DNA of 64,000 nucleotides from Pseudomonadota bacterium (GCA_021825945.1 JAKAFN010000002.1:41915-105914), one strand, 5' to 3'; counted from the stretch's first letter, positions 7,883-22,732 are shown. The notes: generated by a model from the letters alone, not told the origin. Numbers and translations: made by a program.

Positions 7883-9160
7883 TCAGAAGAAGTACCGCGC
7901 GCCGAGCGTCACCCGATTTCCCAGGAGACTGGTGCCGAACTCCGATCCGACGGGACCGGCGGTATGCGTGATCGCCAGCCGGAAATCGGTGTGTTCGGTG
8001 ATGGACTTGATGAGTTCGAACTCCGTCAACGTACTGCCGTCCAACCCCGACAGCACGTTGATCGACGCCTGCCCGCCGTTGGCAAAAACATATTCGACGT
8101 GACAGAAAAGATTGCTCGCCCATGGCAGTTCCAGTGCCTGCGCATCGAGCGCAAGCGCGTCGGCGGCAAGCGCAGGGTTGGCGATCGCGCGATCCGCCTG
8201 CAAGGCCAGATCCCAGTTCCGCTGTTCGGCCTTCGTCATGCCGGAATCGTTACGCTGGAACTCCATGCGCACGCCGATCCCCGGGGAGACGTTCCATTGC
8301 ATCCCCAGCATTGCACGACGATAGAACGCCGGCGACGATCGGCGATCGACGAACACGCTCCCCGTTGGATCCGGCCCGTAGAGTGCCGTCGACAGCATGG
8401 GGAAACGGCTTCCGCGCTGCAAGAAAACCGCGGAATAGACCGAACCTTGCGCCGCCAGCAGGCAGCTTCCGCTGGCGCCGCCACCGAGCGCCATGTCACT
8501 CGGCTTCTGCAACAGACCCAAGGCATGGCAAGCGTCTCCGGTGAATCGCCCCGCGATCAGTCCCTGTTTGATCCCCCGATTGAATCCGGGATTGAGCGCA
8601 TTGAAGGCATACCCCGTGCTGTCGGGCCGATCATCGCTGTAGATCGCCTCCAGCGTATGGTGGGCGTCCCCTACCGAGTAGCGCAACGCCGGGAAGCCGT
8701 TCGACCGGTACGAATAGTCGAAAAAATCGGTCGATGCGATGTTGTCGGTGAGGAAATCCAGCACATGCGCATAAAACCCGTCGTCGAAGGATTCGGTGTA
8801 CTTGCCGATCGTCCACCGGCCTCCCAGGAAGTCGCCGCCGGCCGACAGCATCAGCAGCGATGTCCGCCGAGTCACGGTCGAAAACGCCGTCCCATCCACC
8901 CCTCCGCGATCGACCCCATAATCGCTCTTGATGCGAAACGACATGCCATCGATGGAACCGTCGACGACCACGGCAGCGGCACCTCCCGTCGTCGGAAACC
9001 CGGTCAGCGCCCCCGGATCCGCCACCCGGCGCACTGCGGTGTAACTCCCTTTGGTGACCACGGTCTCGGCGAGGGAAACATCACCGGCGCATACCGCGGT
9101 CGGAACGACGGGCAACAATAGCGACGCCGCGATGACGGCCAGCCTGCCGCATTTGCTCAC
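7883..9160 (-). CDS. Putative outer-membrane beta-barrel protein of the biosynthetic cluster
   Basis: GTG start at 9160 overlaps the upstream TGA (GTGA). Signal-peptide-like N-terminus (LAVIAASLLLPVVPTAVCA), aromatic/Gly-rich strands, C-terminus RVTLGARYFF. Confidence 0.65.
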   Translation of the reverse strand: MSKCGRLAVIAASLLLPVVPTAVCAGDVSLAETVVTKGSYTAVRRVADPGALTGFPTTGGAAAVVVDGSIDGMSFRIKSDYGVDRGGVDGTAFSTVTRRTSLLMLSAGGDFLGGRWTIGKYTESFDDGFYAHVLDFLTDNIASTDFFDYSYRSNGFPALRYSVGDAHHTLEAIYSDDRPDSTGYAFNALNPGFNRGIKQGLIAGRFTGDACHALGLLQKPSDMALGGGASGSCLLAAQGSVYSAVFLQRGSRFPMLSTALYGPDPTGSVFVDRRSSPAFYRRAMLGMQWNVSPGIGVRMEFQRNDSGMTKAEQRNWDLALQADRAIANPALAADALALDAQALELPWASNLFCHVEYVFANGGQASINVLSGLDGSTLTEFELIKSITEHTDFRLAITHTAGPVGSEFGTSLLGNRVTLGARYFF

Positions 9161-9909
9161 TCCGCAAAACCATCTACCGTGAAACGACCCGCGGGGCAAA
9201 TCCCCGGGTCGACCCGGCGGATTTCCAATAGCGTGACCGCGCCGGGATCTGCAGGGTCCATGAACCAGGTTTTGACGATCAGGCGCCGGCCGCCGAGGAC
9301 GGTCGGTCGACCATAGCGGGCGATCTTGAACAGTTTCCCGCTGCCGAGGAAAAAGCGTGCGGCGATCGGCCAGCCGGTCTTGTGATCGACCGTGACCGCG
9401 ATGCGCTGGTATGCACGATGCGTCGTCGTCGCGTGCAGATCGATCACCATTGCGTCGGCGCCGGCAGCCGCCGCTCCGCCTTGCCCTTGCGCTGCGACCG
9501 GCGCCCACGACGCCGTATACCTGCCGACCCAATGCGACCGGGCAAGATCGCCATAACTTGCCTGCCCCAGGATGCGCTCGATCGGCGTGATCGCGATCGT
9601 CCTGCTGCTATGCGGCATGCGTACCCAGACGTTCTGCCCCTGCATCAGGACGCGCTCCGACGCATAGCGCCCGCTCAGGACGTCGATTTCCGCGGCATCC
9701 CGTCCGATGCAGACGCGCATGTCTTCCACACCCCATTTCGCACTGGTCAGGCGGATGCGTAGCTGCCCCTCGGCATTGCCGACTCGAACCCGATCGATCG
9801 CGGCCAGCACGGCGGCGGGATCGGGGGAAGGGATGCCGGCGCCGTGCGCCGGCGGACCCCCGGCAATCAGCGCCGCCGTGACGATCCGGGAAATACGGCG
9901 GTGAGTCAT
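9157..9909 (-). CDS. LolA-like outer-membrane lipoprotein-sorting family protein
   Basis: Signal peptide, VLMQGQNVWVRMP, RILGQASYGDL, YQRIAVTVD, FFLGSGKLFK. Lies next to a LolCDE-type ABC. Start moved to the ATG just after the permease stop. Confidence 0.7.
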   Translation of the reverse strand: MTHRRISRIVTAALIAGGPPAHGAGIPSPDPAAVLAAIDRVRVGNAEGQLRIRLTSAKWGVEDMRVCIGRDAAEIDVLSGRYASERVLMQGQNVWVRMPHSSRTIAITPIERILGQASYGDLARSHWVGRYTASWAPVAAQGQGGAAAAGADAMVIDLHATTTHRAYQRIAVTVDHKTGWPIAARFFLGSGKLFKIARYGRPTVLGGRRLIVKTWFMDPADPGAVTLLEIRRVDPGICPAGRFTVDGFAE

Positions 9910-9910
9910 G

Positions 9911-11101
9911 TCATGTATGCCCGAGTTGATCAATGATGCTCATGCGCCGAACCACGCGCCCCGGAATGCAAGCGATCAGACCGCCGAGCGCGACGAATCC
10001 GAGAAACACCAGCAGCGCCGCCACGGGCGAGAAGACGATCTGCAACGGGTACCCGAGCGAGCGACCCGGAGGAGGCGGCATCGAAATGGCGGCGATGCTC
10101 ACCGCGACGGACAGGATCGCGGCCACCGCAATGCCGATCATCGATCCGACCCCCATCACCATCGCCCCCTCCATCGCCAAACTCGCCTGAATCGATCGCA
10201 TGGGAAACCCGATCGCCCGCAGCACGCCGATCTCGCGGATCCGCTCCATCACGCTCATCAGCAAGGCATTGGAAATCGAGAGCAGCACGACCACGATGAG
10301 GATCAGACCGAACACGGAAAAGATCACCCGGTAGATCGATACGACCTGACCGTAGAACGGATCGACTGCAAACCAGGGCTGCACCGCGAGGTCCGGAAAG
10401 GCGCGCCGCAAATCGCGCTCCATGGCGACGAGCCGATCGCCGTGCGTCAACACCACGACGACTCGGGAAGCACCATCGAGGGCCAGCAACGATCGCGCGG
10501 CCACCAGCGGAATCGTCACTCCGCGCCGATCCAGCGCAGGGATGCCGGTTCGATAGGTTCCGCGAACCGAAAAATCCATGGCATTCAGGACACCATCGCG
10601 ATTCGTCACCAGAACGGTGACCAGGTCGCCGGGATGGATGCGCAATGCCCTGGCGAGGTCCGCGGCCACGGTGATTCCGTTTTTGTCGCCATCGCCGAGG
10701 CCGGTGCCGGAAACCACCGGCAGGAACCCGGCATTCAGACGTGACTCTTTTTCGACATCGACGCCGCGCCCGACGAACGACCCCGTGCGATTCCCCGTCG
10801 CGAGCAGGCCCTCGAAATGGATGCGTTCCATGGCGAACCGGACGTCGGGGTCCTTCCGCAGGAATTCCGATATCCGGGCAGCCTGCGTTCCGGTCAGATC
10901 GCGGTCGGGCGCGGGAGATCGAATCTGCAGGTCGCCGGTTTCACCGTCGATGATCGACTGGCGCAACCCCGCGAAGGATGCCAGGACGAAACCGACGCTC
11001 AGCAGGATCGCTGCGACACCTCCCGCGACGACGGATATCGCGAGGAAGGATCGTCGCCGGTTGCGCAGCGTACTCCGGGCGGCATAGCGCATCACGTTCA
11101 T
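9911..11101 (-). CDS. ABC transporter permease, MacB/FtsX/LolE type
   Basis: RNRRRSFLAI N-terminus, one TM plus a large periplasmic loop, then SVMERIREIGVLRAIGF and three C-terminal TMs. ATGA overlap with the ATPase stop. Confidence 0.87.
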   Translation of the reverse strand: MNVMRYAARSTLRNRRRSFLAISVVAGGVAAILLSVGFVLASFAGLRQSIIDGETGDLQIRSPAPDRDLTGTQAARISEFLRKDPDVRFAMERIHFEGLLATGNRTGSFVGRGVDVEKESRLNAGFLPVVSGTGLGDGDKNGITVAADLARALRIHPGDLVTVLVTNRDGVLNAMDFSVRGTYRTGIPALDRRGVTIPLVAARSLLALDGASRVVVVLTHGDRLVAMERDLRRAFPDLAVQPWFAVDPFYGQVVSIYRVIFSVFGLILIVVVLLSISNALLMSVMERIREIGVLRAIGFPMRSIQASLAMEGAMVMGVGSMIGIAVAAILSVAVSIAAISMPPPPGRSLGYPLQIVFSPVAALLVFLGFVALGGLIACIPGRVVRRMSIIDQLGHT

Positions 11102-11814
11102 TCGTCCAGGACTCCGTCGTGTACATGACAGCAACGGTCGACACGCTCGGTCACGCGCACATCGTGCGTGGCGATCAGAAATGCCGTGCGGGTTCCCTGC
11201 TGCAATGTCGCGAAGCAATCGAGCAGACCGGCTGCCGCAGCCGTATCGAGGCTCGCCGTCGGTTCGTCGGCCAGAACGATGGCCGGTTCGGCGACGAGCG
11301 CGCGCGCGGCGGCAACCCGTTGCTGCTCGCCGCCCGACAATCCGGACGGGCGATGACGCTCACGATGGGAAAGGCCGACCCGCGCCAGGGCGAAACGTGC
11401 TCGTTCCCGGCGCTGCGCGCCGGATAGCGCAGAGTGCAACAGCGGGATTTCGACGTTTTCGAGTGCGTTCAGAACCGGAACCAGATTGCCGCTCTGGAAG
11501 ATGAACCCGATCCGCGTCCGGCGGAAGGTGTCGGCGGCACGCCCGCCAGGCGGAGGCGCGTCGACACCGTCGTAGACGACCTTTCCGGAAGTCGGCGCAT
11601 CGAGCAATCCAAGAATGTGGAGCAGCGTGCTCTTCCCGCTTCCCGACGGGCCGAGCAACGCACACATCTGGCCCGGAAACAAAGACAGCGAAGCGCGCTT
11701 CAAGGCGATCACTTCGTCCACCCGCCGGCGATAGATTTTCGATACGCCGACGGCCGCGACGCAGGGGAGAACTCCGCGGGCCGTGCCGCAGGTTTCCGGA
11801 AGGTCTGCGCTCAC
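11098..11814 (-). CDS. ABC transporter ATP-binding protein (LolD/MacB-like)
   Basis: Walker A GPSGSGKS, signature LSGGEQQRVA, Walker B VLADEPT, ATHD. GTG start at 11814 overlaps the upstream TGA. Confidence 0.92.
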   Translation of the reverse strand: MSADLPETCGTARGVLPCVAAVGVSKIYRRRVDEVIALKRASLSLFPGQMCALLGPSGSGKSTLLHILGLLDAPTSGKVVYDGVDAPPPGGRAADTFRRTRIGFIFQSGNLVPVLNALENVEIPLLHSALSGAQRRERARFALARVGLSHRERHRPSGLSGGEQQRVAAARALVAEPAIVLADEPTASLDTAAAAGLLDCFATLQQGTRTAFLIATHDVRVTERVDRCCHVHDGVLDE

Positions 11815-12437
11815 CGTCCGCTCCAGATCGCATCGGCGACGCCGAACGACGCCGCCCGAGCTGCGTGGAGATATCGCGCGCTTGCCGATGGGTCGCCGGC
11901 GCGACGGGCAAGCACGGCAAGCCACGCCAGCGCAGTCGCCCGGTCGCCCGCGCTCATCGTCGAAAATCCGGGATCGGCATAGGCATGGACGAGGTCCCCG
12001 CGGGCGACCGATTCCTGACCAAAGATCGTGGGAATCTGTGCGCAGGTGATGCCCCGGACCATCTCCACTTCCAGGCGCTGCGTGGCGGGAGTGCCGGCCT
12101 TGGCGACGATATCGGTGGCCTCCCCCATCAAATCGAGCGCCAGATGGAGATTGGCCAAGCGACGCCACGGCAACCATCCGTCGCGCGCCTTCAGCGCAGC
12201 GAGACTTCCTTCATAAACCAGCGGGATCGGGTCCGCGGGACGGGTTGCGGCCACATTGCGGGCGAAGTCGAACGCGGCATCGACGGTCGTCGGGTCCGTC
12301 TTCGCCTCATCGAAGCGCGCGATCATCTCGCGGATCGCCGGATCGGCATGGACGCCATAGCAGGACCCCGGTGCCGGTCCGACGACCGCGACGACCAGCA
12401 CGAAAAACCGCGCGAACACCGTTCCCGGTGTGTCCAT
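11811..12437 (-). CDS. Secreted/periplasmic helical (TPR-like) protein of unknown function
   Basis: GGAGG RBS 7 nt before ATG at 12437. Hydrophobic N-terminal signal and Ala-rich helical body. Stop overlaps the ABC ATPase start. Confidence 0.6.
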   Translation of the reverse strand: MDTPGTVFARFFVLVVAVVGPAPGSCYGVHADPAIREMIARFDEAKTDPTTVDAAFDFARNVAATRPADPIPLVYEGSLAALKARDGWLPWRRLANLHLALDLMGEATDIVAKAGTPATQRLEVEMVRGITCAQIPTIFGQESVARGDLVHAYADPGFSTMSAGDRATALAWLAVLARRAGDPSASARYLHAARAASFGVADAIWSGR

Positions 12438-12471
12438 GAAGAACCTCCGCTGCACTGGAAACATCGGGACC

Positions 12472-14766
12472 CTATGCCGCCTCGACGACGGCGGCCGTCG
12501 CATCCCCGGCGGGAGAGACGTATGCGGCCAAGACGGCACCGCCCTGGCCTCGTTGGCGACGAACCGATCGCACGGCGGTGGCAATGACCGTGGGAAACGA
12601 AGCCGACTGGCCGTGCCCCACCACCGCGCCGATGTCGATCACCGGGATGGACGATCCCCGGAACAACCGGGCAACGACATCCCCGTATTGCCGACGCCAT
12701 AGCCGGGGGCCATGCATCACGGTCACGATCCCACGCAATCCCGCGGCGGCGACCCCCGCGTCCCGCATCGCCGCCGCGACGGCGACGTCGAGGGCACGAC
12801 CATTCGCGCCACCCCCTGCGGCGGCCGTCGCGGTGCTCCGGCCCAAACCACTCAACAGGGCCTGGGGCACGGCGGCGCGCCGCACCATCGCCTCGTGCGT
12901 CTCGAGGATCAAGGCGGTGGCGCCTTCGGAAATGGTGCCGATCGGCGCATCGACCCCGGTTGCGATCGGAACATATGCGGCCGACTGATCGGCGAGAAAT
13001 CGCTCGGACACCTCGTTGGCGCCGAAGACACATAAGCGCTCCTGGTGCCCCTGTCGAACGAAAAGAATGCCCGCGGCAAGGCCGGCATCCCCGCCGACCA
13101 GCGTGGTGTTGAACCCCTTCAGTCCATACGCGATCGAAACGGCCCCCGCAGCGGCGTTCAAGGTGGTGAGGGGAAACTGGGATGCGCTGGCGAACTGTGG
13201 GCCATCATCCATGACGCTGCGCAGGAATTTCTCGACCGCCGTGTGGGATCCGGCCGAAACGGCACCGATCACGCCACAAGGTCCGAGCAGATCGTCCCGA
13301 TCCACGACGATCCCGGAATCGGCGAAGGCGCGTCCCGCCGCGGCCAACGCGAACCGGATGAGGGGAGGGCTGCGTCGGAACGATCCCAGGCGACCTTCCA
13401 TCGACGGCAGCGCGCAGGGCATCGCAGTCGTACTTCCCGGCATCGCCGACACGAAGTCCCGGAGCCCGACCGTCTTGCAAGCGAGCCGTTCGGGATCCGC
13501 GGGAAGACAGTTGCCGACTCCGGTGACGAACGCCCGTCGGCGGATCGGCGCCCGCAGCGTCGGGGGGGCGCGCTTGGACAAAACGACGGAAGCGTTGTTT
13601 CCGCCGAACCCGTACTTGTTGCTGATGAAGGTCTCGTTGCGCGCCACCCCGGGTTCCGGGCCGACGACATTCGCGGGCGCACATCCGGCACGCAGTGAGG
13701 AAAACCTTGCCGTGGGTGCAACGAGTCCCCGTTCCGCGAGCGCGATCGAAACGGCGATCTCCATCGCCCCGCAAGCGCCGAGCGTATGCCCCAGGAATCC
13801 CTTGAGGGAACTGACCGGAACGGCACTTCCAAACACCCGAACCGTCGCAATCGATTCGGGGATGTCGTTGGTATCGGTGCCGGTGCCATGGGCGGAGACG
13901 TAATCCACGTCTTGCGCGACGATGCCGGCATCGCGCAAGGCACCACGCATTGCCGCCTCCAGACCGTCTCCGCTCGCGTCGACCGCGGTTTCATGGAATG
14001 CATCTCCCGAGAGCGCGTAGCCGCGCACGAACCATGCTGCGCGCGCCATGCGGGCCCGCGCGTGACGAGCCGACTCCAGCAACAGTGCGCCGGCACCTTC
14101 GCCAAGCGTGATCCCGGATGGCCGGGAAAATGGCGCGGCGCCGACCGGGCTGACCGCGCGAAGGCTGTTGAATCCCGCCAGGATCGACAGAGAGACCGTA
14201 TCGGTTCCGACGATCAACGCGACCGGGGCCATCCCCGACCGAATGAGGTCGGCACCGATGCCCACTGCGGCATTGCTCGACGCGCATGCGGAAGACACGG
14301 TAAGACGCGGTCCGACGGACCCCAGAACCGTCGTCAGCACGACGGCCGGGTGATCCGTCAGCGAAGCCGCGAAACGGGCCGACCGGGCGGTATCACCTCC
14401 GCGCGAACCCACCGACGAATACATCCGCTCGAGAGAGTGGATGCCGCTATGCGAACTGCCGACCACGATGGCGGCGCCGGCATGCGCAAACGCCGCCGCC
14501 GTCATGGCGCCGTTGCGCAAGGCGCCGAGGGCGGCATGAACGGCATAGCGCGCGCCCGGGTCGCACACGGAAAGATCGACGTCACCGGTCGCAAAGTCGA
14601 AATCCGGCGGAAACTCGACGACGCGATCGCTCGCCAGTCTTGCGCCGTCGAATGTCCGCGCCGATCGGACTCCGTCGCACCGAGCCAGCAGCGAAGAGAC
14701 CAGATCGTCGATCGATCCTCCGAGCGGATGGCAGACCGACATTCCGGTGATCACGACATCGTCCAT
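12472..14766 (-). CDS. Beta-ketoacyl synthase didomain: active FabF-like KS fused to a catalytically degenerate CLF-like KS
   Basis: Domain 1 has VSSACASS (Cys), SAHGTGT (His), SLKGFLGHTLGA (Lys/His) and YGFGGNNAS. Domain 2 starts RRAFVTGVG and has FPLTTLNAAAG but no Cys/His motifs. GGAGG RBS. Confidence 0.88.
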   Translation of the reverse strand: MDDVVITGMSVCHPLGGSIDDLVSSLLARCDGVRSARTFDGARLASDRVVEFPPDFDFATGDVDLSVCDPGARYAVHAALGALRNGAMTAAAFAHAGAAIVVGSSHSGIHSLERMYSSVGSRGGDTARSARFAASLTDHPAVVLTTVLGSVGPRLTVSSACASSNAAVGIGADLIRSGMAPVALIVGTDTVSLSILAGFNSLRAVSPVGAAPFSRPSGITLGEGAGALLLESARHARARMARAAWFVRGYALSGDAFHETAVDASGDGLEAAMRGALRDAGIVAQDVDYVSAHGTGTDTNDIPESIATVRVFGSAVPVSSLKGFLGHTLGACGAMEIAVSIALAERGLVAPTARFSSLRAGCAPANVVGPEPGVARNETFISNKYGFGGNNASVVLSKRAPPTLRAPIRRRAFVTGVGNCLPADPERLACKTVGLRDFVSAMPGSTTAMPCALPSMEGRLGSFRRSPPLIRFALAAAGRAFADSGIVVDRDDLLGPCGVIGAVSAGSHTAVEKFLRSVMDDGPQFASASQFPLTTLNAAAGAVSIAYGLKGFNTTLVGGDAGLAAGILFVRQGHQERLCVFGANEVSERFLADQSAAYVPIATGVDAPIGTISEGATALILETHEAMVRRAAVPQALLSGLGRSTATAAAGGGANGRALDVAVAAAMRDAGVAAAGLRGIVTVMHGPRLWRRQYGDVVARLFRGSSIPVIDIGAVVGHGQSASFPTVIATAVRSVRRQRGQGGAVLAAYVSPAGDATAAVVEAA

Positions 14767-14821
14767 ACGGAAAACACCTCCCCGAATCCGGGTCGAATGA
14801 CGTGTGAACGGCCGGCGATTC

Positions 14822-15562
14822 CTAGCGTTTGAAGCCGCCGTCCACCTTGATCGTCGTCCCGTTCACGTACCGCGCCGCCAGCAGGAACGTCACGGCATCG
14901 GCGACGTCCCCCGGATCGCCGATGCGGTGCAACGACGTGCCATGGACGATGTGCCGAACCATGCCGTCGTCGAGCCGCTCCGTCATCTCGGTCGCGATGA
15001 ACCCGGGCGCGACGGCATTCGCGCGAACGCCGGTCCGACTGGTCTTGCGCGCCAGGAGCTTCGTGAACCCGATCAGCCCGCCCTTGCTGGCCGCGTACGA
15101 AACCTGTCCTTCCTTGCCCACGACTCCCGCCAGCGATGCGATATTGACGATCGATGCGTCGGAACCGGCTCGAAACAGCGGCAGCAGGGCCCAGGTCAGC
15201 CGGATCGTTCCAAACAGGTTTGCTTCCAGCAACGCGGCAATCCGCCCCGTCTCCATCGAAAGAAATGCACCGTCGTCGGTGGTTCCGGCGTTGTTGACGA
15301 TCGCATCCAGCCGTCCCGTGTGCGCGGCGATCGCATCCGCCGCCGCATCGACCGAACGGTCCGAGCGGAGATCCATCCGGACAAAACCGATCGCCGGCAC
15401 CGCGTCGACATTCCCGGCATGGGGCCGATTCCGGTCGACTTCCCCGTGATCGCGGCAGTAGGTGCCGATCACACGCCAGCCGGCGTGCGCCAGCCGGTCG
15501 GCAATCGCCCTACCGATTCCCCTCGTGGCGCCGGTCACCACGACCGTCTTCGGGGTGCTCAT
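14822..15562 (-). CDS. 3-oxoacyl-ACP reductase (FabG-like SDR)
   Basis: TGATRGIG, NNAG, catalytic S and YAASK, VNAV-like RANAVAPGFIATEM. ATGA overlap with the upstream gene. Confidence 0.9.
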   Translation of the reverse strand: MSTPKTVVVTGATRGIGRAIADRLAHAGWRVIGTYCRDHGEVDRNRPHAGNVDAVPAIGFVRMDLRSDRSVDAAADAIAAHTGRLDAIVNNAGTTDDGAFLSMETGRIAALLEANLFGTIRLTWALLPLFRAGSDASIVNIASLAGVVGKEGQVSYAASKGGLIGFTKLLARKTSRTGVRANAVAPGFIATEMTERLDDGMVRHIVHGTSLHRIGDPGDVADAVTFLLAARYVNGTTIKVDGGFKR

Positions 15563-16182
15563 AGATTTCCCTCCGGGAACCCGACGCCCATCGGGATCAC
15601 CAGCCCGGCAAAGCATCGGCAATCCATCTCGCAGAACGTAATGACGGCACACGCAACGGCCGTCGCCGTAACCGGATGAAACCGCAACGCATAGGCCTTG
15701 AGGTCGTCCCGTGCCCCGATCCAGGCGGATTCCGACGCCTGTTCGACAAACGACTGAATGTCGAGGACATTGATCTCCACGCCCATTCGGAACACTTCTT
15801 TCGCCAGGCTCTTGGCCGCGGCGATCCGTGCCCGACTTGCGATCGGCGACTGCGGCAACGTCAGGTAATAGCTGGCGCTGTCCTCCTGGGTCAGGACGAA
15901 TATCTTTCCGCCACCCCGACGAGCCAACACAATCGATGCGTTCCGGATTTCGGTCAGGAACCGCATCATGTCCTCATGGATGCGGTCGACGATTACGGAA
16001 AACTCGTCGTCGTCATCGAGCAGCACGGCCTCGTCGATTGACGGCAGGTCGAACACCACGCAATCGAAGTCGTCGGCGACGGGGATGTTTGCAACACAAT
16101 TCGCGCGCAATCCGCGGGCGGCAGCTTCTGCGAGGATGGCATCGACCAGGGTCGATCGATTTCCCAGGATGGCAAGGTTCAT
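15559..16182 (-). CDS. Degenerate SDR-fold protein (pseudo-ketoreductase)
   Basis: Keeps SDR scaffold remnants (GGGKIFVL, AAAKSLAKE, GVEINVL) but lacks TGxxxGxG and YxxxK. Translationally coupled to the FabG-like gene. Confidence 0.6.
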   Translation of the reverse strand: MNLAILGNRSTLVDAILAEAAARGLRANCVANIPVADDFDCVVFDLPSIDEAVLLDDDDEFSVIVDRIHEDMMRFLTEIRNASIVLARRGGGKIFVLTQEDSASYYLTLPQSPIASRARIAAAKSLAKEVFRMGVEINVLDIQSFVEQASESAWIGARDDLKAYALRFHPVTATAVACAVITFCEMDCRCFAGLVIPMGVGFPEGNL

Positions 16183-16198
16183 GATCGAATCCCCGATG

Positions 16199-17242
16199 CT
16201 AGGAAATCGTTGCGGTTGCATACATCCACGTTGCCGATTCGACGGCCAGGAAGCCGATGCATGCCCCCGGCAGACGGACGGCACCGCGTTCGATGGCAAT
16301 GTCGAGCGCACGGAAGATCGCCGCGGCAGGTGCATTTCCGGTTTCGTCTCCGATGTAAAACCGCTTGGCGTCGAAGACGTGTGTCGCATGGAGTCCCATC
16401 AACGCCGGATTCGCCTGCGGCAACACGACGAGGTCCATGCGATCGACTCCGCCGACCATCTCCAGAAGATCGGTTCGGGCGGCATCGATGACTTCCGGCA
16501 TGATCCGCCGGATCGCCCGATGGTCATGACGACATATGCCATTACACAGCGTGAACCCGGGTCTCCGGTCCGCATACCGTGAGGACACGTTGATCGGGCC
16601 AATCGCGGGGAACCGCGTGACCGTCTCGCCGTGAACCGGCCCGCGCCCGACGACCATCGCCCCCGCGCCATCGGCAAATCCGAGTGCGTTCAGGACATCT
16701 TCGGTCCGGAACGACTTTCGCCCCACCAATGGGGTATAGAACTTGTCGGAAATGAACTCGCTTCCGCAGACCAGAACGCAATCCGCCGCGCCCGAGGTGA
16801 CGCGGTCCCGCGCAATCTTGAGTGCCTGCAGACTCGATGCGCAGCCGCCGCGAACGTCGACGAGGTCGGCGCGACGGATTCCAAGTCGCTTCTGCAGTGC
16901 ATGGGGGAGCGGCGGCAGTTCGGAGTCCGGAGTCGACGTCGCGGTAACGATGAGATCGACATCGTTTGCCATGCATCGGGCCCGTTCCAACGCCCGTTCG
17001 GATGCGCGTGCGGCAAATTCCGTGTTGCAATAGGAGGGATCCCGGAGCCGTCCGGTGCGGGGGTCGACACCGAGGTAGCGGGTTCGTACGCCAAAGAACT
17101 CCATCACCGTTTGCGCCGGGATCGACAGGGCCGACTCGATCTCCGCATTGCCGACGGGCGTTCCGGGCGAATACGAGCCGATCCCGAGAACGACCGCGGG
17201 TACAACCGATTCCGAGGATGCATCGTGTGCAGACGAACCCAT
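16199..17242 (-). CDS. 3-oxoacyl-ACP synthase III (FabH-like), atypical active site
   Basis: GIGSYSPG, IVTATSTPD, GGCASSLQAL (Cys), FADGAGAMVV, GNAPAA (Asn). The HQAN motif is replaced by PQAN. Confidence 0.85.
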   Translation of the reverse strand: MGSSAHDASSESVVPAVVLGIGSYSPGTPVGNAEIESALSIPAQTVMEFFGVRTRYLGVDPRTGRLRDPSYCNTEFAARASERALERARCMANDVDLIVTATSTPDSELPPLPHALQKRLGIRRADLVDVRGGCASSLQALKIARDRVTSGAADCVLVCGSEFISDKFYTPLVGRKSFRTEDVLNALGFADGAGAMVVGRGPVHGETVTRFPAIGPINVSSRYADRRPGFTLCNGICRHDHRAIRRIMPEVIDAARTDLLEMVGGVDRMDLVVLPQANPALMGLHATHVFDAKRFYIGDETGNAPAAAIFRALDIAIERGAVRLPGACIGFLAVESATWMYATATIS

Positions 17243-17253
17243 GGCACCCCCGT

Positions 17254-17544
17254 TCAGGCCGTATCCCCCGCCCGCAGGCGGTGTACGTGTTCGCTGAAGT
17301 CGCGGACGGTGGTGCAGATTCGGGCGATGCGATCGCGGGAGATCTCCCCGAACTTGACCTGAAACAGCAATTCCGCGCCGACGACCAGATCGAGCGCGTC
17401 GACCGAATCCAGACCAAGTCCGCGCTCATCCAGCAAGGGTATGTCGTCGGATATCGACGCCTCGGTGAATCCCAACTCGCCAAGCTCCAGCCGTCCCAGG
17501 AGCAGATCGCTTTTTACCCGCCGCATGATCTCGTCAACACCCAT
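17254..17544 (-). CDS. Acyl carrier protein
   Basis: 96 aa, acidic, with GLGLDSVDALDL (phosphopantetheine Ser) and TVRD. GGAGAAGG RBS. Confidence 0.9.
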   Translation of the reverse strand: MGVDEIMRRVKSDLLLGRLELGELGFTEASISDDIPLLDERGLGLDSVDALDLVVGAELLFQVKFGEISRDRIARICTTVRDFSEHVHRLRAGDTA

Positions 17545-18037
17545 TGCCTTCTCCCCGTTCCGTGTTACTGCGAAAATCGCATGCCGGCGACCACGCCTCG
17601 TGAAGCCACAACTCGGCACGGGCGACTCGCTCTCGGCCGATGTGCGCGCCGCACTTGAATGCGTAGTATTGGGATGATTCCCCCGCCAGCCCCTGGTCGG
17701 TTCGTACCAACGTTGCGCGGAACTGCACGCACTCCCCGGGACGCACGATGCGGTGGAACGTGGCAGAGTCCACCTTCGCCAGGGTGCCGTGGCGGATGGT
17801 TCCATGGCGCGCATTGAGGTAGGCCCTCGACAATTGCGCCATCGCCTCCAGCAGCAAGACGCCGGGCACGATCGGGTCGCCTGGAAAATGCCCCGGAAAG
17901 TAAAATTCGTCGGCGTGGAACAAACGCCGGCCGATGATGCCGCCGGGGTCGTCCAACAGGCTCGCTTCGTCCAGAAAGCGGAACGGATGCGTCTGCCGCA
18001 GCAAGGGAAGTCGTGTCATGGCTCGTCCTGGAAACAT
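17534..18037 (-). CDS. 3-hydroxyacyl-ACP dehydratase (FabZ-like, hotdog fold)
   Basis: HPFRFLD and YFPGHFPGDPIVPGVLLLEAMAQ, with catalytic His and Glu intact. TGATG coupling with the upstream gene. Confidence 0.88.
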   Translation of the reverse strand: MFPGRAMTRLPLLRQTHPFRFLDEASLLDDPGGIIGRRLFHADEFYFPGHFPGDPIVPGVLLLEAMAQLSRAYLNARHGTIRHGTLAKVDSATFHRIVRPGECVQFRATLVRTDQGLAGESSQYYAFKCGAHIGRERVARAELWLHEAWSPACDFRSNTERGEGNGC

Positions 18038-18450
18038 CACGACTCCGCCCGCATGGTTTCCAGACGTGCTAGCGCGATCACCTTCCCGTCTTGGCGCGCA
18101 TGGCATTCGTAGGACGATGCGTTTCCGGTTTGACCCAACCAGCGCGCACAGACGACGACCCCAGGGGGGAAATAGCGTTGCACGAGGAATGCGCCGTCGG
18201 CGATGCGCGTCACATAACCGATTCCGCCGTCGCAGCGCAACGCACTGAGCGTTGCCGCGGCCTGGGCAAATGCTTCGAGCAGCAGAATGTTGGGAAACAG
18301 GTCGCCGACGATTTCCGCAGAACACCAGTCCCGGTTCAGATACATTTCCACGAAGTCCTCCGAGGGAAATCGCGATATGTCGCCGACGATTCGGAATGGT
18401 GGCTTCTGGCGGATCGCGGGGGCATCGATTCGAACCGGGCGGTACGTCAT
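18037..18450 (-). CDS. Degenerate FabZ-like hotdog protein (dehydratase partner)
   Basis: PPFRIVGD and PNILLLEAFAQ retained, GHFP His motif absent. ATGA overlap with the AsnB stop. Confidence 0.65.
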   Translation of the reverse strand: MTYRPVRIDAPAIRQKPPFRIVGDISRFPSEDFVEMYLNRDWCSAEIVGDLFPNILLLEAFAQAAATLSALRCDGGIGYVTRIADGAFLVQRYFPPGVVVCARWLGQTGNASSYECHARQDGKVIALARLETMRAES

Positions 18451-20444
18451 CGTGGTGTCCGCGCTCCAGAGGAGCGGCGCGAAAGACGGGGAATCGGCGT
18501 CACCGTCACGCTTGCCACCTGCGCTTCGATGGTCCGCCGGTGGTATTCGCCCTTTCGGGTCGCAAGGTCGCGCTCGAGCGCAAACGTCGATGACAGCAGC
18601 AACAGCGCCCGTGCGTGGGAATAGGGAAGGGTTGTGCCACCCCGCCCGGCCGTCTTCCGGCGCTCCAGCAGATATTCGCCATGCGGACGCGATGCCCATG
18701 GCAATTCTTCGTTGCCGAGCGAATCCGCGAACTCGTGGAACAAGGGATCGGCGTCGCGGCTTTGGACGAACGCGACATCCGGCGTCAGGTACGATTTCTT
18801 GGGACGATCCACCACGGTGGCCGGCAGGTGATCCCGGTACGCGTCGCGGAGGATTTTCTTTTCCGGACCTTCGCTCGGCAAAACCCACTCCTGCGGCAAC
18901 GATACCGCCAGGGAAACGACATCGGCATCCAGGAACGGGCATCGGTTTTCGATTCCCCAGGCCATGGTCATGCGATCGCCCTGAACCGAAAGCAGGTAAC
19001 CGGCAAGCCGTTTGGAAAGTTCCAGCGCGCGCGCACGCGAGACGGGATCGAATCCGGCGAGATCGGCATAGATCCGCTCCTCGCGTTCTCGGATCCGACG
19101 AAACGCAGCGCCCTGCGCCAGCGTCGATGCCGCAGGCTTGTTGTTGTAATACTGCGGCAGGTGGGAATACAGAAGGTCGTGTCGGTTCGAGAAGCGGCGC
19201 ATCACCAAGCGCATCGCGGCATCGGCGGACTCGCTCCATCCGGTATAGGCTGCCGTGAGATGTGCGGCGATGGCCGCCGCGCCGGGTTGATCGAACGTGG
19301 CGCTTCGAAGGAGCACCTCTTTGAATATCCCATATCCAAGGAAGATTTCGTCCGCGCCCTCACCGCTCAACGCGACGGCGTACCCGTCCGCGTGCAGTTG
19401 GCGCGCCAAGTGATACATGGGGACCGGCGCGACAGTGGGAATCGGTTGCTCGGCGTGATATATCGCATCGCGAAATCCGGCAGCGATCGTCGCCGATGTC
19501 GCCGCGATCCGCCGGTGCACAAGGCCCAGTCGTGCACACACCCTCTCCTGCGCACCGCTTTCATCGTATTCGGTATTCGGGAATGCAATGGAATACGCAG
19601 TGATGCGGCGGGATGAATCGGCGGCGAGTTCCATTGCGATGATCGACGAGTCGATCCCACCGCTCGCCAGCACAGTCACCGGGCGGTTCGCTTGTGCACG
19701 GCGGTGGACGCTCGCTGCGATTCGGTGTCGTACCTCGCGCACCGCATCGTCGCGTGAGCCCGAGTATCGCGGTACCGATCGGCGCCTGCCGGACATTCGG
19801 GATATTTTTCCATTTCGAATCCAGACGCTTTCGCCGGGGCAAACCTGATAGACATTTTGAAACACGGTCTCCGGCGCTGTAACCGCGGACGTCCAATACA
19901 GCGCGCCAAGCGCGTCCGCGTCGTATTGCAGGGAGAACCAAGGCAACGCGAGAAAGGCTTTGGCCTCGGACGCGAACGCCAGCACCGACCCGGACTGCGT
20001 GTAGTAAAGCGGGCGCTTGCCGAGCGGGTCGCGAGTGAGAAGAACGGCTGCGGTCGCGCGGTCGTAATACGCCAGCGCAAATCCGCCGTTGAATCGTTCG
20101 ACCGCACGATTTCCCCATTCGCGCAACGCCGTCAGAACGATTTCGGTATCGCATCGACGCGGAAACATATTGCCGAGTGATCTGAGCTCGCACTCGAGTT
20201 CCGGCCCGTTGTAGATTTCTCCGTTGTAGGAAATCCAGTGTTGACCGCTGTCATCGGACATCGGCTGGCGACTCGCGTCTCCGCCCGCGATCGCCAGGAG
20301 CGCATGGCCCAGGACGCACTGCTCATCATGGACGACCGCGTGCGCGTCCGGGCCGCGATGACCGATCCTCACAACCATTTCACAAACGATACGCACCGCC
20401 CCGGAAGGCAGGCGTGGCGAAACGATCCCGGCGATTCCACACAT
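18447..20444 (-). CDS. Asparagine synthase-like glutamine-dependent amidotransferase (AsnB family)
   Basis: N-terminal MCGIAG (Ntn Cys), HRGPD, NGEIYN, RDPLGKRPLYY, SGGIDSS, SGEGADE, DRMTMAWGIENRCPFLD. Confidence 0.92.
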   Translation of the reverse strand: MCGIAGIVSPRLPSGAVRIVCEMVVRIGHRGPDAHAVVHDEQCVLGHALLAIAGGDASRQPMSDDSGQHWISYNGEIYNGPELECELRSLGNMFPRRCDTEIVLTALREWGNRAVERFNGGFALAYYDRATAAVLLTRDPLGKRPLYYTQSGSVLAFASEAKAFLALPWFSLQYDADALGALYWTSAVTAPETVFQNVYQVCPGESVWIRNGKISRMSGRRRSVPRYSGSRDDAVREVRHRIAASVHRRAQANRPVTVLASGGIDSSIIAMELAADSSRRITAYSIAFPNTEYDESGAQERVCARLGLVHRRIAATSATIAAGFRDAIYHAEQPIPTVAPVPMYHLARQLHADGYAVALSGEGADEIFLGYGIFKEVLLRSATFDQPGAAAIAAHLTAAYTGWSESADAAMRLVMRRFSNRHDLLYSHLPQYYNNKPAASTLAQGAAFRRIREREERIYADLAGFDPVSRARALELSKRLAGYLLSVQGDRMTMAWGIENRCPFLDADVVSLAVSLPQEWVLPSEGPEKKILRDAYRDHLPATVVDRPKKSYLTPDVAFVQSRDADPLFHEFADSLGNEELPWASRPHGEYLLERRKTAGRGGTTLPYSHARALLLLSSTFALERDLATRKGEYHRRTIEAQVASVTVTPIPRLSRRSSGARTPR

Positions 20445-20657
20445 GATCGAACCCTTGATCTCATTGTCCTGTAGCGGCTTGCATCGTCCCGCTCTGCAAT
20501 AGGAGACCGAGACGACGCACCCCGCTGCCCGACGAACGGATGCTCACCAAGTCGATACGGCTTGGGAGCTGCTGCGGTAATCGGTAAAACCGGTGAAACT
20601 GCTGCGGGAGATGATTCGTGCGGATCGCGCGAATCTGTTCTTCTCATTGTTTGCAAG

Positions 20658-20686
20658 ATCGTAGGGATCGCCTATCACTCTGTCAA
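20658..20686 (-). promoter_or_regulatory. Sigma70-type promoter of the biosynthetic operon
   Basis: Minus strand reads TTGACA (20686-20681), 17 nt, TACGAT (20663-20658) in an AT-rich intergenic region, about 205 nt upstream of the AsnB ATG. Confidence 0.7.
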
Positions 20687-20704
20687 TGAATTTGGCGATC
20701 CCTA
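20662..20704. promoter_or_regulatory. 11-bp perfect inverted repeat overlapping the promoter (candidate operator)
   Basis: TAGGGATCGCC (20662-20672), 21 nt, GGCGATCCCTA (20694-20704). The arms bracket the -35 and one arm overlaps the spacer/-10. Confidence 0.6.
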
Positions 20705-20875
20705 ACAAGATTTTGTGATGGATGTCGCAGAGATTCAGGTTGTTGAATTTCGATCCGGGAAAATCAACCCGAAATCGATCTCAACATCGAGGAAATACCC
20801 GATTCCACAGCGCCGAGAGCGGGGTACGGGATTCGCAGCGACGATCCCGGCCGGCATCTCGCGGCGCAGGATCGA

Positions 20876-22732
20876 TCACGCAACGGCCAGACCGGATTCC
20901 GGCATTCCTCGATCGGTTTCGTCATGCTGCTGCAACTCCCACATCCGCGCATACACGCCGCCGCGGGCGAGCAACGAAGCGTGATCGCCGGACTCGACGA
21001 TGCGTCCGCGGTCCATCACCAGGATCTGATCGGCCTTGACCACGGTGGAGAGACGGTGCGCGATCACCAGCGTCGTGCGACTCGCGCTTGCCGCCTCGAT
21101 CTCGGTCTGGATCGCGCGTTCCGTGCGCGAATCGAGCGCAGATGTGGCTTCGTCGAAGATCATCAACGGCGGATCCTTGAGCAGCGTACGCGCGATCGCG
21201 ACCCGCTGCTTTTCCCCTCCCGAGAGCTTAAGACCACGCTCGCCGACGATGGTGCGATAACCGTCGGGCAAGGTTTCGATGAAATCGTGGATGTGCGCGG
21301 CGCGCGCCGCCGCGACGACCTCGTCACGACGGGCACCGGGACGCCCGTAGGCGATGTTGTATTCGATCGACTCATTGAACAGCACGGTATCCTGCGGCAC
21401 GATTCCAATGGCGGCCCGCAACGACGTTTGCGTGCAATCGCGAATGTCCTGGCCGCCGATCAATACTGCACCACCCTGCACGTCGTAGAAGCGGAAGAGC
21501 AGGCGGGCGAGCGTCGATTTTCCGGAGCCGGTTGCGCCGACCACCGCACAGGTCGTGCGCGCGGGGATCGTGAAATGGACATCGTGCAGCACTTGCCTGC
21601 GCGGGTCATAGCCGAATGACACGTGCACGAACCGCACCTCCGGAGATCGATCCGGGCCCAGCGCAAGGGGGCGCGCATCGGGCCGGTCCGCCACTTCCCG
21701 ATTCTGCTGCAGCAGCCGGAACATCCGGTCCATGTCGGTCAGCGCCTGCCGTACTTCGCGGTAAATGACGCCGAGGAAGTTGAGTGGCGCATAGAGCTGC
21801 AGCATGAAAGCATTGACGAGCACGAGATCGCCGATCGACAGCGCGCCGGAACGCACGCCGAGCGCAGCGCGCCACAGCAGCAGTGTCAGGCCCACCGCAA
21901 TGATCGCCTGCTGGCCTCCGTTCAACAAGTTCAGCGACTGCTGCACCCGCAAGGCGGCCCGCTCCTGCAAGGCGAGCGTCGCGTCGTAGCGCTGCGCCTC
22001 GTACTCCTCGTTGTTGAAGTACTTCACCGTCTCGTAGTTCAGCAGCGCATCGACGGCATTCGACGACGCCTTGGCATCCAGTTCATTGACCTCCCGGCGG
22101 ATGCGCGTGCGATAGTTGGTGACCAGCAGCGTGTAGGCGACGTAGGCCGCGAGACTCGCCGCGACGATGACCGCAAACCAGATCTCGTAGTGCAGCAGGA
22201 GGTAGCCGAACACCACCGCGATCTCGAAGAGCGTCGGCAGGATGGAATAGAGCGTGAAGCTCACGAGCGAGGAAATGCCGCGGATGCCGTGATCGATCTC
22301 GCGCGTCACCGCCCCGGTGCGCCGCTCGAGGTGGAAGCGCAACGACAGTTCGTGCAGATGGCGGAACGTCTTGAGCGCCAGCTTGCGCACCGTCGCCTGC
22401 GTGACCTTGGCGAAGAAGAATTCGCGCAACTCGGAAAACAGGGATGTCCCCAGGCGCAGAACGCCGTAGGCGACCACCAGCGCGACCGGAACCAGAGCCG
22501 CATCGGCGGCGGGAGGGACGGCGAGCGTGTTGACGATGCGCTTCAGCAGAATCGGCACGCCGATCAGTGCGAGCTTGCCGAGCACCATGCAGGTCACCGC
22601 CAGGGCGACACGGACCTTGTATTCCCACAGGTACGGCAGGAGAAAGCGCAAGGTCTGCCAATCCCGGCGAGGTTCATCCGGGTTGGCCTGGCTCGCTGCG
22701 CCATGGGTCGGCATGGGTCGAATTCCGCGCAT
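20876..22732 (-). CDS. ABC transporter, fused permease/ATPase, Atm1/ABCB7/Hmt1 family; start uncertain
   Basis: LSLRFHLERRTGAV, DALLNYETVKYFNNE, GATGSGKS, GIVPQDTVLFN, LSGGEKQRVAIAR, FDEATSALD. Confidence 0.92.
   Translation of the reverse strand: MRGIRPMPTHGAASQANPDEPRRDWQTLRFLLPYLWEYKVRVALAVTCMVLGKLALIGVPILLKRIVNTLAVPPAADAALVPVALVVAYGVLRLGTSLFSELREFFFAKVTQATVRKLALKTFRHLHELSLRFHLERRTGAVTREIDHGIRGISSLVSFTLYSILPTLFEIAVVFGYLLLHYEIWFAVIVAASLAAYVAYTLLVTNYRTRIRREVNELDAKASSNAVDALLNYETVKYFNNEEYEAQRYDATLALQERAALRVQQSLNLLNGGQQAIIAVGLTLLLWRAALGVRSGALSIGDLVLVNAFMLQLYAPLNFLGVIYREVRQALTDMDRMFRLLQQNREVADRPDARPLALGPDRSPEVRFVHVSFGYDPRRQVLHDVHFTIPARTTCAVVGATGSGKSTLARLLFRFYDVQGGAVLIGGQDIRDCTQTSLRAAIGIVPQDTVLFNESIEYNIAYGRPGARRDEVVAAARAAHIHDFIETLPDGYRTIVGERGLKLSGGEKQRVAIARTLLKDPPLMIFDEATSALDSRTERAIQTEIEAASASRTTLVIAHRLSTVVKADQILVMDRGRIVESGDHASLLARGGVYARMWELQQHDETDRGMPESGLAVA

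What the first reader, a model, noticed from the sequence alone, without database searches (positions are those of the whole stretch)
14822..18450. Every elongation enzyme has a degenerate twin: KR + pseudo-KR and DH + pseudo-DH, in addition to KS + CLF
Seen: 15559-16182 keeps SDR scaffold motifs but lacks the NAD(P)H-binding TGxxxGxG and YxxxK, and is coupled to an intact FabG. 18037-18450 keeps the FabZ LLLEAxAQ Glu but lacks the GHFP His, and is coupled to an intact FabZ. Established: FabZ active sites use His and Glu from opposite subunits, and aryl polyene synthesis uses a heterodimeric dehydratase (ApeI/ApeP). Inference: all three steps may run as asymmetric hetero-oligomers. A pseudo-KR partner is the least expected part and may be a specificity or scaffold subunit.
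Basis: partly seen in the sequence, partly recalled or inferred. Interest (0 to 1): 0.72.

Follow-up and report, generated by a model that had tools for sequence, protein, structure and literature searches.

The report
Dead partner subunits in a polyketide-like synthase
A rare lipid or polyene gene cluster from an uncultured mine-drainage bacterium pairs its working reductase and dehydratase each with a conserved, catalytically dead relative; the dead dehydratase is a known kind of partner, while the dead reductase belongs to a small protein family that has not been described.

Summary
On the minus strand lie, tightly packed: AsnB-like, pseudo-DH, FabZ-type DH, ACP, KAS III-like, pseudo-KR, FabG-type KR and a fused KS-CLF, followed by Lol-like export genes.

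The pseudo-DH has a FabZ fold, lacks the catalytic His and keeps the Glu. In related clusters the DH His and the pseudo-DH Glu are both always kept. One relative's DH has lost its own Glu, and another fuses pseudo-DH, DH and ACP into one protein. This matches the known ApeI/ApeP type of heterodimer with a single composite active site.

The pseudo-KR has a FabG/SDR fold without the Gly-rich motif, NNAG, the catalytic Ser or Tyr, and with Lys changed to Arg. It has no Pfam or NCBIfam hit. About 45 clusters exist among 1.84 billion representative proteins. Its dN/dS equals that of the active enzymes. Down to 25% identity it sits just upstream of a dedicated KR clade and the KS-CLF.

KR/pseudo-KR binding is inferred, not shown. 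Two relatives (DH-ACP-pseudoSDR) have no KR within 10 kb. The two proteins are not recent twins (16% identity). The closest analogy is the psiKR-KR pair of type I synthases.

The parts
18447..20444 (-). AsnB-like amidotransferase (665 aa), first gene of the core operon
   Evidence: Asn_synthase E=8e-66, GATase_7 E=3e-34, TIGR01536 E=2e-119. Present in L003, L006, L008 and L019 clusters.
18037..18450 (-). Pseudo-DH (137 aa): FabZ hot-dog fold, catalytic His absent (Glu46 in that column), Glu59 kept
   Evidence: (1u1z E=4e-12; 6qsr_B E=1.7e-4). dN/dS 0.17-0.23. ATGA overlap with the AsnB stop codon.
17534..18040 (-). Intact FabZ-type dehydratase (161-168 aa; start at GTG 18040, ATG 18037 or ATG 18019), with GHFPG His and LLLEAMAQ Glu
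   Evidence: FabA E=6e-18. FabZ structures E=5e-13. His conserved in 15 of 15 homologues.
17254..17544 (-). Acyl carrier protein (96 aa), LGLDSVD Ser motif
   Evidence: PP-binding E=5e-4, NF006617 E=4e-6. 92-93% identical in L006 and L008, dN/dS 0.09-0.13. An ACP lies upstream of the pseudo-SDR wherever the upstream flank is held; L017, L021 and L023 are too short to tell.
16199..17242 (-). KAS III-like protein (347 aa) with Cys kept, FabH His244 replaced by Pro (PQAN), Asn kept
   Evidence: ACP_syn_III E=1e-10. Alignments to 4dfe and 5by7.
15559..16182 (-). Pseudo-KR (207 aa): FabG/SDR fold without the Gly-rich motif, NNAG, catalytic Ser or Tyr; Lys changed to Arg117; about 28 residues of the N-terminal Rossmann half are deleted relative to more distant homologues
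   Evidence: (no family hit). dN/dS 0.16-0.25.
14822..15562 (-). Intact FabG-type ketoreductase (246 aa); its start overlaps the pseudo-KR stop codon (ATGA)
   Evidence: adh_short E=1e-50, TIGR01830 E=2e-61. Belongs to a KR clade marked by GKEGQ and a DGGF(K/Q)R C-terminus.
12472..14766 (-). Fused KS-CLF (764 aa): N-terminal half has Cys-His-His, C-terminal half lacks the Cys
   Evidence: ketoacyl-synt plus Ketoacyl-synt_C, fabF E=1e-79. Split alignment across 8 clusters.
11811..12464 (-). Conserved protein of about 208-217 aa of unknown function with an N-terminal hydrophobic segment
   Evidence: No Pfam hit. Homologue in the same position in L001, L002, L003 and L006; a called gene of about 200 aa in the same position in L019 and L020.
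7883..11790 (-). Export module: ABC ATPase (11098-11790), MacB/FtsX permease (9911-11101), LolA-like protein (9157-9933), 412-aa protein with a signal-like N-terminus (7883-9121)
   Evidence: Pfam hits. Same order in L001-L003, L006, L019 and L020.

Best explanation
The region is the core of a rare type II (dissociated) PKS/FAS-like cluster with no enoyl reductase gene. It probably makes an unsaturated or polyene-type acyl chain that is exported by a Lol-like system. The product and its export are inferences.

In this cluster each reductive or dehydrating catalyst works with a non-catalytic paralogue.

(1) DH and pseudo-DH form an ApeI/ApeP-like FabZ heterodimer with one composite active site, built from the His of DH and Glu59 of pseudo-DH. 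The second site is dead.

(2) KS and CLF are fused into one chain.

(3) The pseudo-KR is an SDR-fold protein that I infer has lost NADPH binding and lacks the catalytic residues. It most likely takes the place of FabG subunits in the usual SDR oligomer and pairs with the adjacent dedicated KR through the alpha-E/alpha-F helices, which are its best-conserved parts. This would be a stand-alone counterpart of the psiKR structural subdomain of type I PKS/FAS/PUFA synthases. It would stabilise the KR and possibly shape ACP docking or the substrate channel.

Shown here: folds, loss of motifs, conservation, synteny and purifying selection. Inferred: the physical complexes and the product.
For: Fold and motif loss.

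Selection: dN/dS for pseudo-KR is 0.16-0.25 and for pseudo-DH 0.17-0.23, against 0.21-0.23 for KR, 0.16-0.27 for DH and 0.18-0.24 for KS-CLF.

Synteny: the order pseudo-KR, KR, KS-CLF holds in the window, L001, L002, L003, L006/L009, L008, L019 (25% identity), L020, L022 and a JGI contig; L017 holds pseudo-KR then KR. ATGA-type overlaps occur in the window, L006, L008 and L009 (one clade), L019 and L022.

Dedicated partner: the partner KRs are 39-63% identical to each other but 29-37% identical to other SDRs, and share GKEGQ. In L012-15 this same KR clade lies 7 kb away in the same cluster.

DH pair: DH His is kept in 15 of 15 and pseudo-DH Glu in 9 of 9. L019's DH has lost its Glu. L022 fuses pseudo-DH, DH and ACP. 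DHs that have no pseudo-DH partner all keep both residues.

The ApeI/ApeP heterodimer with a single active site is established (PMC8041823; 6qsr).

Across the wider pseudo-SDR family only scaffold positions are conserved (E129, N138, G193, G199, G201, L76), not an active site.
Against: No direct evidence of KR/pseudo-KR contact exists.

L010 and L011 carry DH-ACP-pseudoSDR with no KR within 10 kb.

The neighbour seen wherever the upstream flank is held is an ACP, not the KR.

In the closer subfamily several polar residues are invariant (S102, R88, Q143, W154, N206). These could mark a binding or catalytic site rather than a plain scaffold.

ApeQ, the KR of the best-studied related system, is a homotetramer and needs no partner (PMC8041823).

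No transcripts were found in three small metatranscriptomes.
Confidence: 0.6

Rival explanations
1. The pseudo-SDR is not a KR partner. It is an ACP- or DH-associated factor, for example an acyl-ACP holder or gatekeeper or a chain-length or selectivity subunit, and it works independently of the KR.
For: An ACP gene lies just upstream (directly, or with KAS III between) wherever the upstream flank is held. A DH-ACP-pseudoSDR cassette occurs in L010, L011, L012-16 and L018 without an adjacent KR. L020 moved the DH pair away but kept ACP-KASIII-pseudoKR.
Against: The cassette-type proteins form a derived subclade nearest to P0010, which comes from a standard cluster. L012-15 still encode the cognate KR clade in the same cluster. 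L016 and L018 are contigs too short to judge. In every deep branch sampled (P0042, P0045, P0048, P0052) the KR is the immediate downstream gene.
Confidence: 0.2
2. The pseudo-SDR is a cofactor-independent enzyme that uses the SDR fold for new chemistry on ACP-bound intermediates (for example isomerisation, cyclisation or elimination), in the way halohydrin dehalogenases reuse the fold with a Ser-Tyr-Arg triad.
For: The catalytic Lys is replaced by Arg, as in halohydrin dehalogenases (their Ser-Tyr-Arg triad is my own knowledge). The family profile and the model also hit halohydrin dehalogenases (7wkq E=5e-4; 8xxb at rank 6). The QEDS..YY..SRAR block is invariant within the closer family.
Against: There is no Tyr at the catalytic position. 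The QEDS/YY block is not conserved across the wider family (for example CDDF, VDDV, VNPS), where only scaffold residues are invariant.
Confidence: 0.12
3. The degenerate genes are decaying remnants of duplicated KR and DH genes and have no function.
For: Catalytic motifs are lost. The window's clade has an additional deletion of about 28 residues in the pseudo-KR N-terminal half.
Against: Both have intact ORFs in every cluster examined. dN/dS is 0.16-0.25, the same as the active enzymes. They are conserved down to 25-30% identity in the same position. KR and pseudo-KR are only 16% identical, so this is not a recent duplication. Pseudo-DH Glu is invariant.
Confidence: 0.02

Closest known systems
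ApeI/ApeP heterodimeric dehydratase of aryl polyene clusters (PDB 6qsr)
   Same: Two FabZ-fold proteins are encoded in one type II PKS-like cluster, one of them catalytically incomplete, giving a single composite active site. DH homologues hit Pfam ApeI-like and pseudo-DH homologues hit ApeP-like weakly. The pseudo-DH profile and model match 6qsr_B.
   Different: Sequence similarity is low. The window proteins themselves gave no ApeI-like or ApeP-like hit at E<=0.1. The genes are adjacent and translationally coupled here, whereas they are far apart in the E. coli ape cluster. The cluster has a different make-up: no ApeH-type loader or ApeB methyltransferase was found among the genes scanned, and it has AsnB, KAS III-like and fused KS-CLF.
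psiKR (structural) plus catalytic KR subdomains of type I PKS, animal FAS and PUFA synthases
   Same: An SDR-like half that has lost nucleotide binding sits directly N-terminal (here, directly upstream) of a catalytic KR and is thought to substitute for the second subunit of an SDR dimer. The same megasynthases also have KS-CLF didomains (PfaC, PMC9702510) and pseudo-dimeric double hot-dog DHs. The description of psiKR rests on my own knowledge of the field.
   Different: Here it is a separate polypeptide in a dissociated system. Its profile is closest to bacterial FabG/MabA, not to type I KR domains. No homology to psiKR was shown.
Human mitochondrial KAR, the HSD17B8/CBR4 alpha2beta2 heterotetramer (PDB 4cql), and petunia benzaldehyde synthase alpha2beta2 (PMC13418739)
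   Same: These are hetero-oligomers built from two different SDR subunits. 4cql chains are among the top structural matches of the pseudo-KR model (ranks 9 and 46).
   Different: In KAR both subunits bind a nicotinamide cofactor (my own knowledge). The pseudo-KR here lacks the Gly-rich motif and part of the Rossmann half.
Actinorhodin-type KS/CLF and PfaC KS-CLF
   Same: An active KS is paired with a Cys-less KS paralogue.
   Different: It is fused in one 764-aa chain, as in PfaC, yet it sits in an otherwise dissociated cluster.

Membership tests
Classical SDR / FabG ketoreductase (for pseudo-KR) | Rossmann-type SDR fold | tested here: met
   Family profile against PDB: 5ovj E=8.8e-9 over the full length. 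Foldseek top hits are all FabG-type structures, probability 1.0.
Classical SDR / FabG ketoreductase (for pseudo-KR) | TGxxxGxG nucleotide-binding motif and NNAG | tested here: not met
   These are aligned to LGNRSTLV and FDLP. Both are absent in all of about 55 family representatives.
Classical SDR / FabG ketoreductase (for pseudo-KR) | Catalytic Ser...YxxxK | tested here: not met
   Ser is aligned to Glu100 or falls in a gap. Tyr is aligned to Ser/Pro112-113. Lys is aligned to Arg117. hhalign alternatively pairs Tyr with Y105, but then 6-7 extra residues precede R117, so the YxxxK spacing is lost either way.
ApeI/ApeP-type heterodimeric dehydratase | Two FabZ-fold subunits encoded together, one lacking the catalytic His | tested here: met
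ApeI/ApeP-type heterodimeric dehydratase | Match to Pfam ApeI-like (PF22818) and ApeP-like (PF22817) | tested here: inconclusive
   Homologues in L001, L002, L003, L006, L019 and L020 carry precomputed ApeI-like hits, and the pseudo-DHs of L001, L002 and L019 carry weak ApeP-like hits. The window's own two proteins gave no such hit at E<=0.1.
ApeI/ApeP-type heterodimeric dehydratase | Physical 1:1 complex with one active site | not testable with these tools
   Indirect support only: the L022 pseudo-DH-DH-ACP fusion, and L019 DH lacking Glu while its pseudo-DH keeps it.
psiKR-KR pseudo-dimer of type I synthases | Non-NADPH-binding SDR-like module immediately preceding a catalytic KR | tested here: met
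   Gene order pseudo-KR then KR in about 10 independent clusters.
psiKR-KR pseudo-dimer of type I synthases | Covalent fusion within one polypeptide | tested here: not met
   They are separate ORFs in different frames with an ATGA overlap. No fused form is seen among the 96 family hits.
psiKR-KR pseudo-dimer of type I synthases | Direct packing of the two halves | not testable with these tools
Aryl polyene (ape) gene cluster | ApeH-type aryl loader, ApeB methyltransferase, separate ApeO/ApeC, RND exporter ApeM | tested here: not met
   The cluster instead has AsnB-like, KAS III-like, fused KS-CLF and a MacB/FtsX ABC transporter with a LolA-like protein. The gene list of the ape cluster was taken from PMC8253772.

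The most novel reading that the evidence does not exclude
The pseudo-SDR family is a cofactor-less SDR that has gained a function of its own on ACP-tethered intermediates. Candidates are an acyl-ACP gate, a chain-length gate, or a non-redox catalyst using the conserved QEDS/YY/SRAR surface. It would act with DH and ACP rather than with the KR. This would explain the DH-ACP-pseudoSDR cassettes in the AurF-like and haem-oxygenase-like diiron clusters L010 and L011, which have no KR nearby.
Probability: 0.15. Interest if true: 0.8.

Novelty: new variant of a known kind. Interest (0 to 1): 0.58.

Why it matters
Pseudo-subunits (CLF, ApeP, HadA/C, psiKR) decide chain length and selectivity in fatty-acid and polyketide synthases.

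I found no described stand-alone pseudo-KR encoded beside a dedicated KR in a dissociated system, either in the literature searched or in Pfam or NCBIfam.

If it forms an alpha2beta2 complex with the KR, three things follow:
- It would be the type II counterpart of the psiKR-KR didomain of megasynthases.
- It would give a simple two-protein system for studying why KRs need a dead partner.
- It would be a marker gene for mining a rare, uncharacterised class of clusters from uncultured Proteobacteria.

The DH and KS parts are ordinary for this kind of cluster.

Tried and rejected
- **Broad family scan.** The 48-sequence family alignment A2 was too diverse for the search for related loci. The narrower A3 gave only 7 metagenome loci.
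- **Third homologue search.** Run with A2, it was capped at 8000 candidates. It added two family members already known (P0045, P0048) and two ordinary SDRs.
- **Short contigs.** Look-ups of P0017 and P0072 returned contigs too short for context.
- **Literature.** A search for 'DX-7F-24', the eDNA clone carrying a pseudo-DH homologue, found nothing. Searches for a stand-alone pseudo-KR, or for an inactive KR partner in type II systems, found none.
- **Transcription.** Three metatranscriptomes from the same study hold no contig of the biosynthetic genes. One 122-base RNA contig, 10 letters different, lies on the 412-aa export gene. This is uninformative because the runs are small.
- **Rejected: pseudogene decay**, on the dN/dS and synteny data.
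- **Rejected: recent tandem duplication ('twins')**, because KR and pseudo-KR share only 16% identity.
- **Rejected: membership of the canonical ape cluster**, because the gene content differs.


Full report
**What is there**

The window has 65% G+C, dipping to about 62% between 16 and 22 kb. Its sequence is held almost completely (0.99 of sampled words) by four mine-drainage metagenome runs, at about 155x depth in the run that was laid on it.

On the minus strand, ORF reading, codon-position G+C and profile searches give one tightly packed operon:
- AsnB-like amidotransferase, 18447-20444
- pseudo-DH, 18037-18450
- FabZ-type DH, 17534-18019 or 18040
- ACP, 17254-17544
- KAS III-like, 16199-17242
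- pseudo-KR, 15559-16182
- FabG-type KR, 14822-15562
- fused KS-CLF, 12472-14766
- a conserved unknown protein of about 210 aa, 11811-12464
- ABC ATPase, 11098-11790
- MacB/FtsX permease, 9911-11101
- LolA-like protein, 9157-9933
- a 412-aa protein with a signal-like N-terminus, 7883-9121

The start codons of pseudo-DH and KR overlap the preceding stop codon (ATGA). The DH start may do the same (GTGA). No enoyl reductase gene is present.

**Checking the observation: KR and pseudo-KR**

The KR is an ordinary FabG: adh_short E=1e-50, TIGR01830 E=2e-61, with TGATRGIG, NNAG and YAASK.

The 207-aa pseudo-KR has no Pfam or NCBIfam hit at E<=0.1. A profile built from its 10 closest relatives (A1) aligns end to end with MabA/FabG structures (5ovj, E=8.8e-9). 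An AlphaFold model (pLDDT 76, pTM 0.79) matches FabG and acetoacetyl-CoA reductase structures with Foldseek probability 1.0.

The alignments place LGNRSTLV against TGxxxGxG and FDLP against NNAG. The catalytic Ser falls on Glu100 or in a gap, and the catalytic Lys falls on Arg117. By HMMER and by the model, no Tyr stands at the start of helix alpha-F. hhalign alternatively pairs the KR Tyr with Y105, but then 6-7 extra residues precede Arg117, so the YxxxK spacing is lost either way.

The window's clade also lacks about 28 residues of the N-terminal Rossmann half that more distant homologues still have.

**Checking the observation: DH, pseudo-DH and KS-CLF**

The DH has GHFPG and LLLEAMAQ and matches FabZ structures.

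The pseudo-DH profile hits P. aeruginosa FabZ 1u1z at E=4e-12 and chain B of the ApeI:P heterocomplex 6qsr at E=1.7e-4. Its model has a FabZ hot-dog fold. The His column holds Glu46, and Glu59 is invariant.

The C-terminal half of the KS-CLF protein lacks the active-site Cys in all eight clusters examined.

**Is it functional?**

I compared the window with L008 (80% identity in pseudo-KR) and L006 (75%). NG86 dN/dS values are:

| Gene | dN/dS |
|---|---|
| pseudo-KR | 0.16-0.25 |
| pseudo-DH | 0.17-0.23 |
| KR | 0.21-0.23 |
| DH | 0.16-0.27 |
| KS-CLF | 0.18-0.24 |
| AsnB-like | 0.17 |

Both degenerate genes are under the same purifying selection as the active enzymes.

**How widespread, and with what neighbours?**

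The pseudo-KR family is rare:
- 10 clusters in the word-indexed search of 5.8 billion proteins.
- 45 representatives at E<1e-10 and 96 at E<1e-3 among 1.84 billion in the full HMMER scan.
- 4 of 185,579 GTDB species by pattern scan, which is a lower bound. All four are MAGs: two 'Proteobacteria bacterium', one Arenibaculum and one Steroidobacteraceae.

All of the roughly 55 full-length representatives that were aligned lack the Gly-rich motif and YxxxK. Across 48 of them only scaffold positions are conserved or nearly so (E129, G193, L76, N138, G199, G201).

Genomic contexts show the block pseudo-KR, KR, fused KS-CLF (often followed by a 4HBT thioesterase) in the window, L001, L002, L003, L006/L009, L008, L019, L020, L022 and a JGI contig. 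L017 holds pseudo-KR then KR on a short contig.
- L019 carries P0048, which is 25% identical to the window protein.
- L020 carries P0045. There the DH pair has moved to the end of the cluster.
- L022 carries P0052 and has no KAS III.
- The JGI contig carries P0042.
- A remote clade (L023, P0072) has the reverse order, KR then SDR-like, again with a 4-nt overlap.

The partner KRs form their own clade. They are 39-63% identical to each other but 29-37% identical to other SDRs, and they share a GKEGQ motif and a DGGF(K/Q)R C-terminus.

**A second context**

Loci L010-L016 and L018 carry a DH-ACP-pseudoSDR cassette with no pseudo-DH, no KAS III and no adjacent KR. In L010-L015 it lies in clusters with AurF-like and/or haem-oxygenase-like diiron enzymes; L016 and L018 are too short to show this.

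These proteins are nearest to P0010, which comes from a standard cluster, so this context looks derived. In L012-15 a KR of the same GKEGQ clade lies 7 kb away in the cluster. L016 and L018 are too short to judge.

That leaves L010 and L011 as the only cases with no KR within 10 kb. Wherever the upstream flank is held, an ACP gene lies just upstream of the pseudo-SDR.

**The DH pair**

Across 15 DHs the His is always present. Across 9 pseudo-DHs the Glu is always present, and the His is absent in 8.
- In L019 the DH has lost its own Glu (LLLGMLTA), while its pseudo-DH keeps Glu.
- In L022, pseudo-DH, DH and ACP are fused into one 384-aa protein.
- DHs that occur without a pseudo-DH (L010-L018) all keep both residues.

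The pattern is therefore what a heterodimer with a single composite site predicts, with His from DH and Glu from pseudo-DH. ApeI/ApeP is exactly such an enzyme (PMC8041823; 6qsr).

**Mechanism proposed**

DH/pseudo-DH is an ApeI/ApeP-like heterodimer with one active site (confidence about 0.85).

The pseudo-KR most likely replaces FabG subunits in the SDR oligomer and pairs with the dedicated KR through the alpha-E/alpha-F helices, which are its most conserved segments (FLxEIQ...LAR and SRARIAAxKSLAKE). In this role it would act like the psiKR structural subdomain of type I PKS/FAS/PUFA synthases (confidence about 0.55).

Rivals:
- An ACP- or DH-associated factor independent of the KR (0.2).
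- A new non-redox enzyme on the SDR fold (0.12). Halohydrin dehalogenases also have Lys replaced by Arg and appear among the hits. However, the putative site is not conserved family-wide.
- Gene decay (refuted).

**Comparison with what is known**

The DH pair and the KS-CLF are known kinds. The cluster is not a canonical ape cluster, because its gene content differs (PMC8253772 compared).

ApeQ, the aryl-polyene KR, is a homotetramer with no partner (PMC8041823). Searches of the paper library found no stand-alone pseudo-KR in a type II system.

Known analogies for SDR hetero-oligomers:
- psiKR-KR didomains of type I synthases.
- Human KAR, HSD17B8/CBR4 (4cql).
- Petunia benzaldehyde synthase (PMC13418739).

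'Twin' is not apt. KR and pseudo-KR are only 16% identical (hhalign probability 89%).

**Verdict**

The new element is an uncharacterised, rare pseudo-SDR family that co-evolves with a dedicated KR clade and a fused KS-CLF. It is a new variant of a known principle. It is moderately interesting and can be tested directly with two-protein biochemistry.

Noticed in passing
window 16199-17242 (-): The KAS III-like protein keeps the active-site Cys and Asn, but the FabH His244 position is Pro (VVLPQANP instead of HQAN). Its best structural relative, 5by7, also has Pro-Pro-Gln there. It may be an acyltransferase or primer-loading enzyme rather than a condensing enzyme.
   Followed up: partly
L022 4387-5541: A single 384-aa protein fuses a His-less hot-dog, a His-bearing hot-dog (with Asp in the Glu position) and an ACP. 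It is a natural fusion of the pseudo-DH/DH pair with its carrier.
   Followed up: partly
L019 3393-4213: The DH has the His but has lost the Glu (LLLGMLTA). The partner pseudo-DH keeps the Glu and also has a His at the canonical 14-residue spacing, without the GHFP context.
   Followed up: partly
L010 1-10500; L011 1400-10460; L012 6700-19700: A DH-ACP-pseudoSDR cassette lies in a different kind of cluster. It sits with AurF-like diiron oxygenase, haem-oxygenase-like diiron enzyme (fused to a cupin in L011), class II aldolase, an MFS-ACP fusion, a KS, an alpha/beta hydrolase and Liv-type ABC transporter genes. The product is unknown.
   Followed up: partly
window 15559-16182 (-), residues about 26-30: The window's pseudo-KR clade (P0001-P0003) lacks about 28 residues (beta-B/alpha-C region) that are present in the homologues at 43-48% identity. 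This is a further erosion of the former nucleotide-binding half.
   Followed up: partly
window 17335-17494 (ACP gene): In DNA run X1 a second contig variant with 15 substitutions covers this stretch at about one third of the depth (74 of 234). This suggests a co-occurring strain or a second copy of the ACP region.
   Followed up: no
window 12330-12624, 12365-12458 and 9279-19739: Low-depth contigs in run X1 skip 293, 92 and 10,459 bases. These may be assembly artefacts or rare deletion variants around the junction of KS-CLF and the unknown gene, and across the whole cluster.
   Followed up: no
window 20876-22765 (-): A 629-aa ABC exporter (ABC_membrane plus ABC_tran) lies directly upstream of the AsnB-like gene. 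A homologue is in the same place in L006, so it may belong to the cluster.
   Followed up: no
window 16000-22000: G+C drops to 0.62 here, against 0.65-0.68 in the flanks, and GC3 of the cluster genes (0.70-0.75) is lower than that of neighbouring genes (about 0.8). This hints at horizontal acquisition.
   Followed up: no
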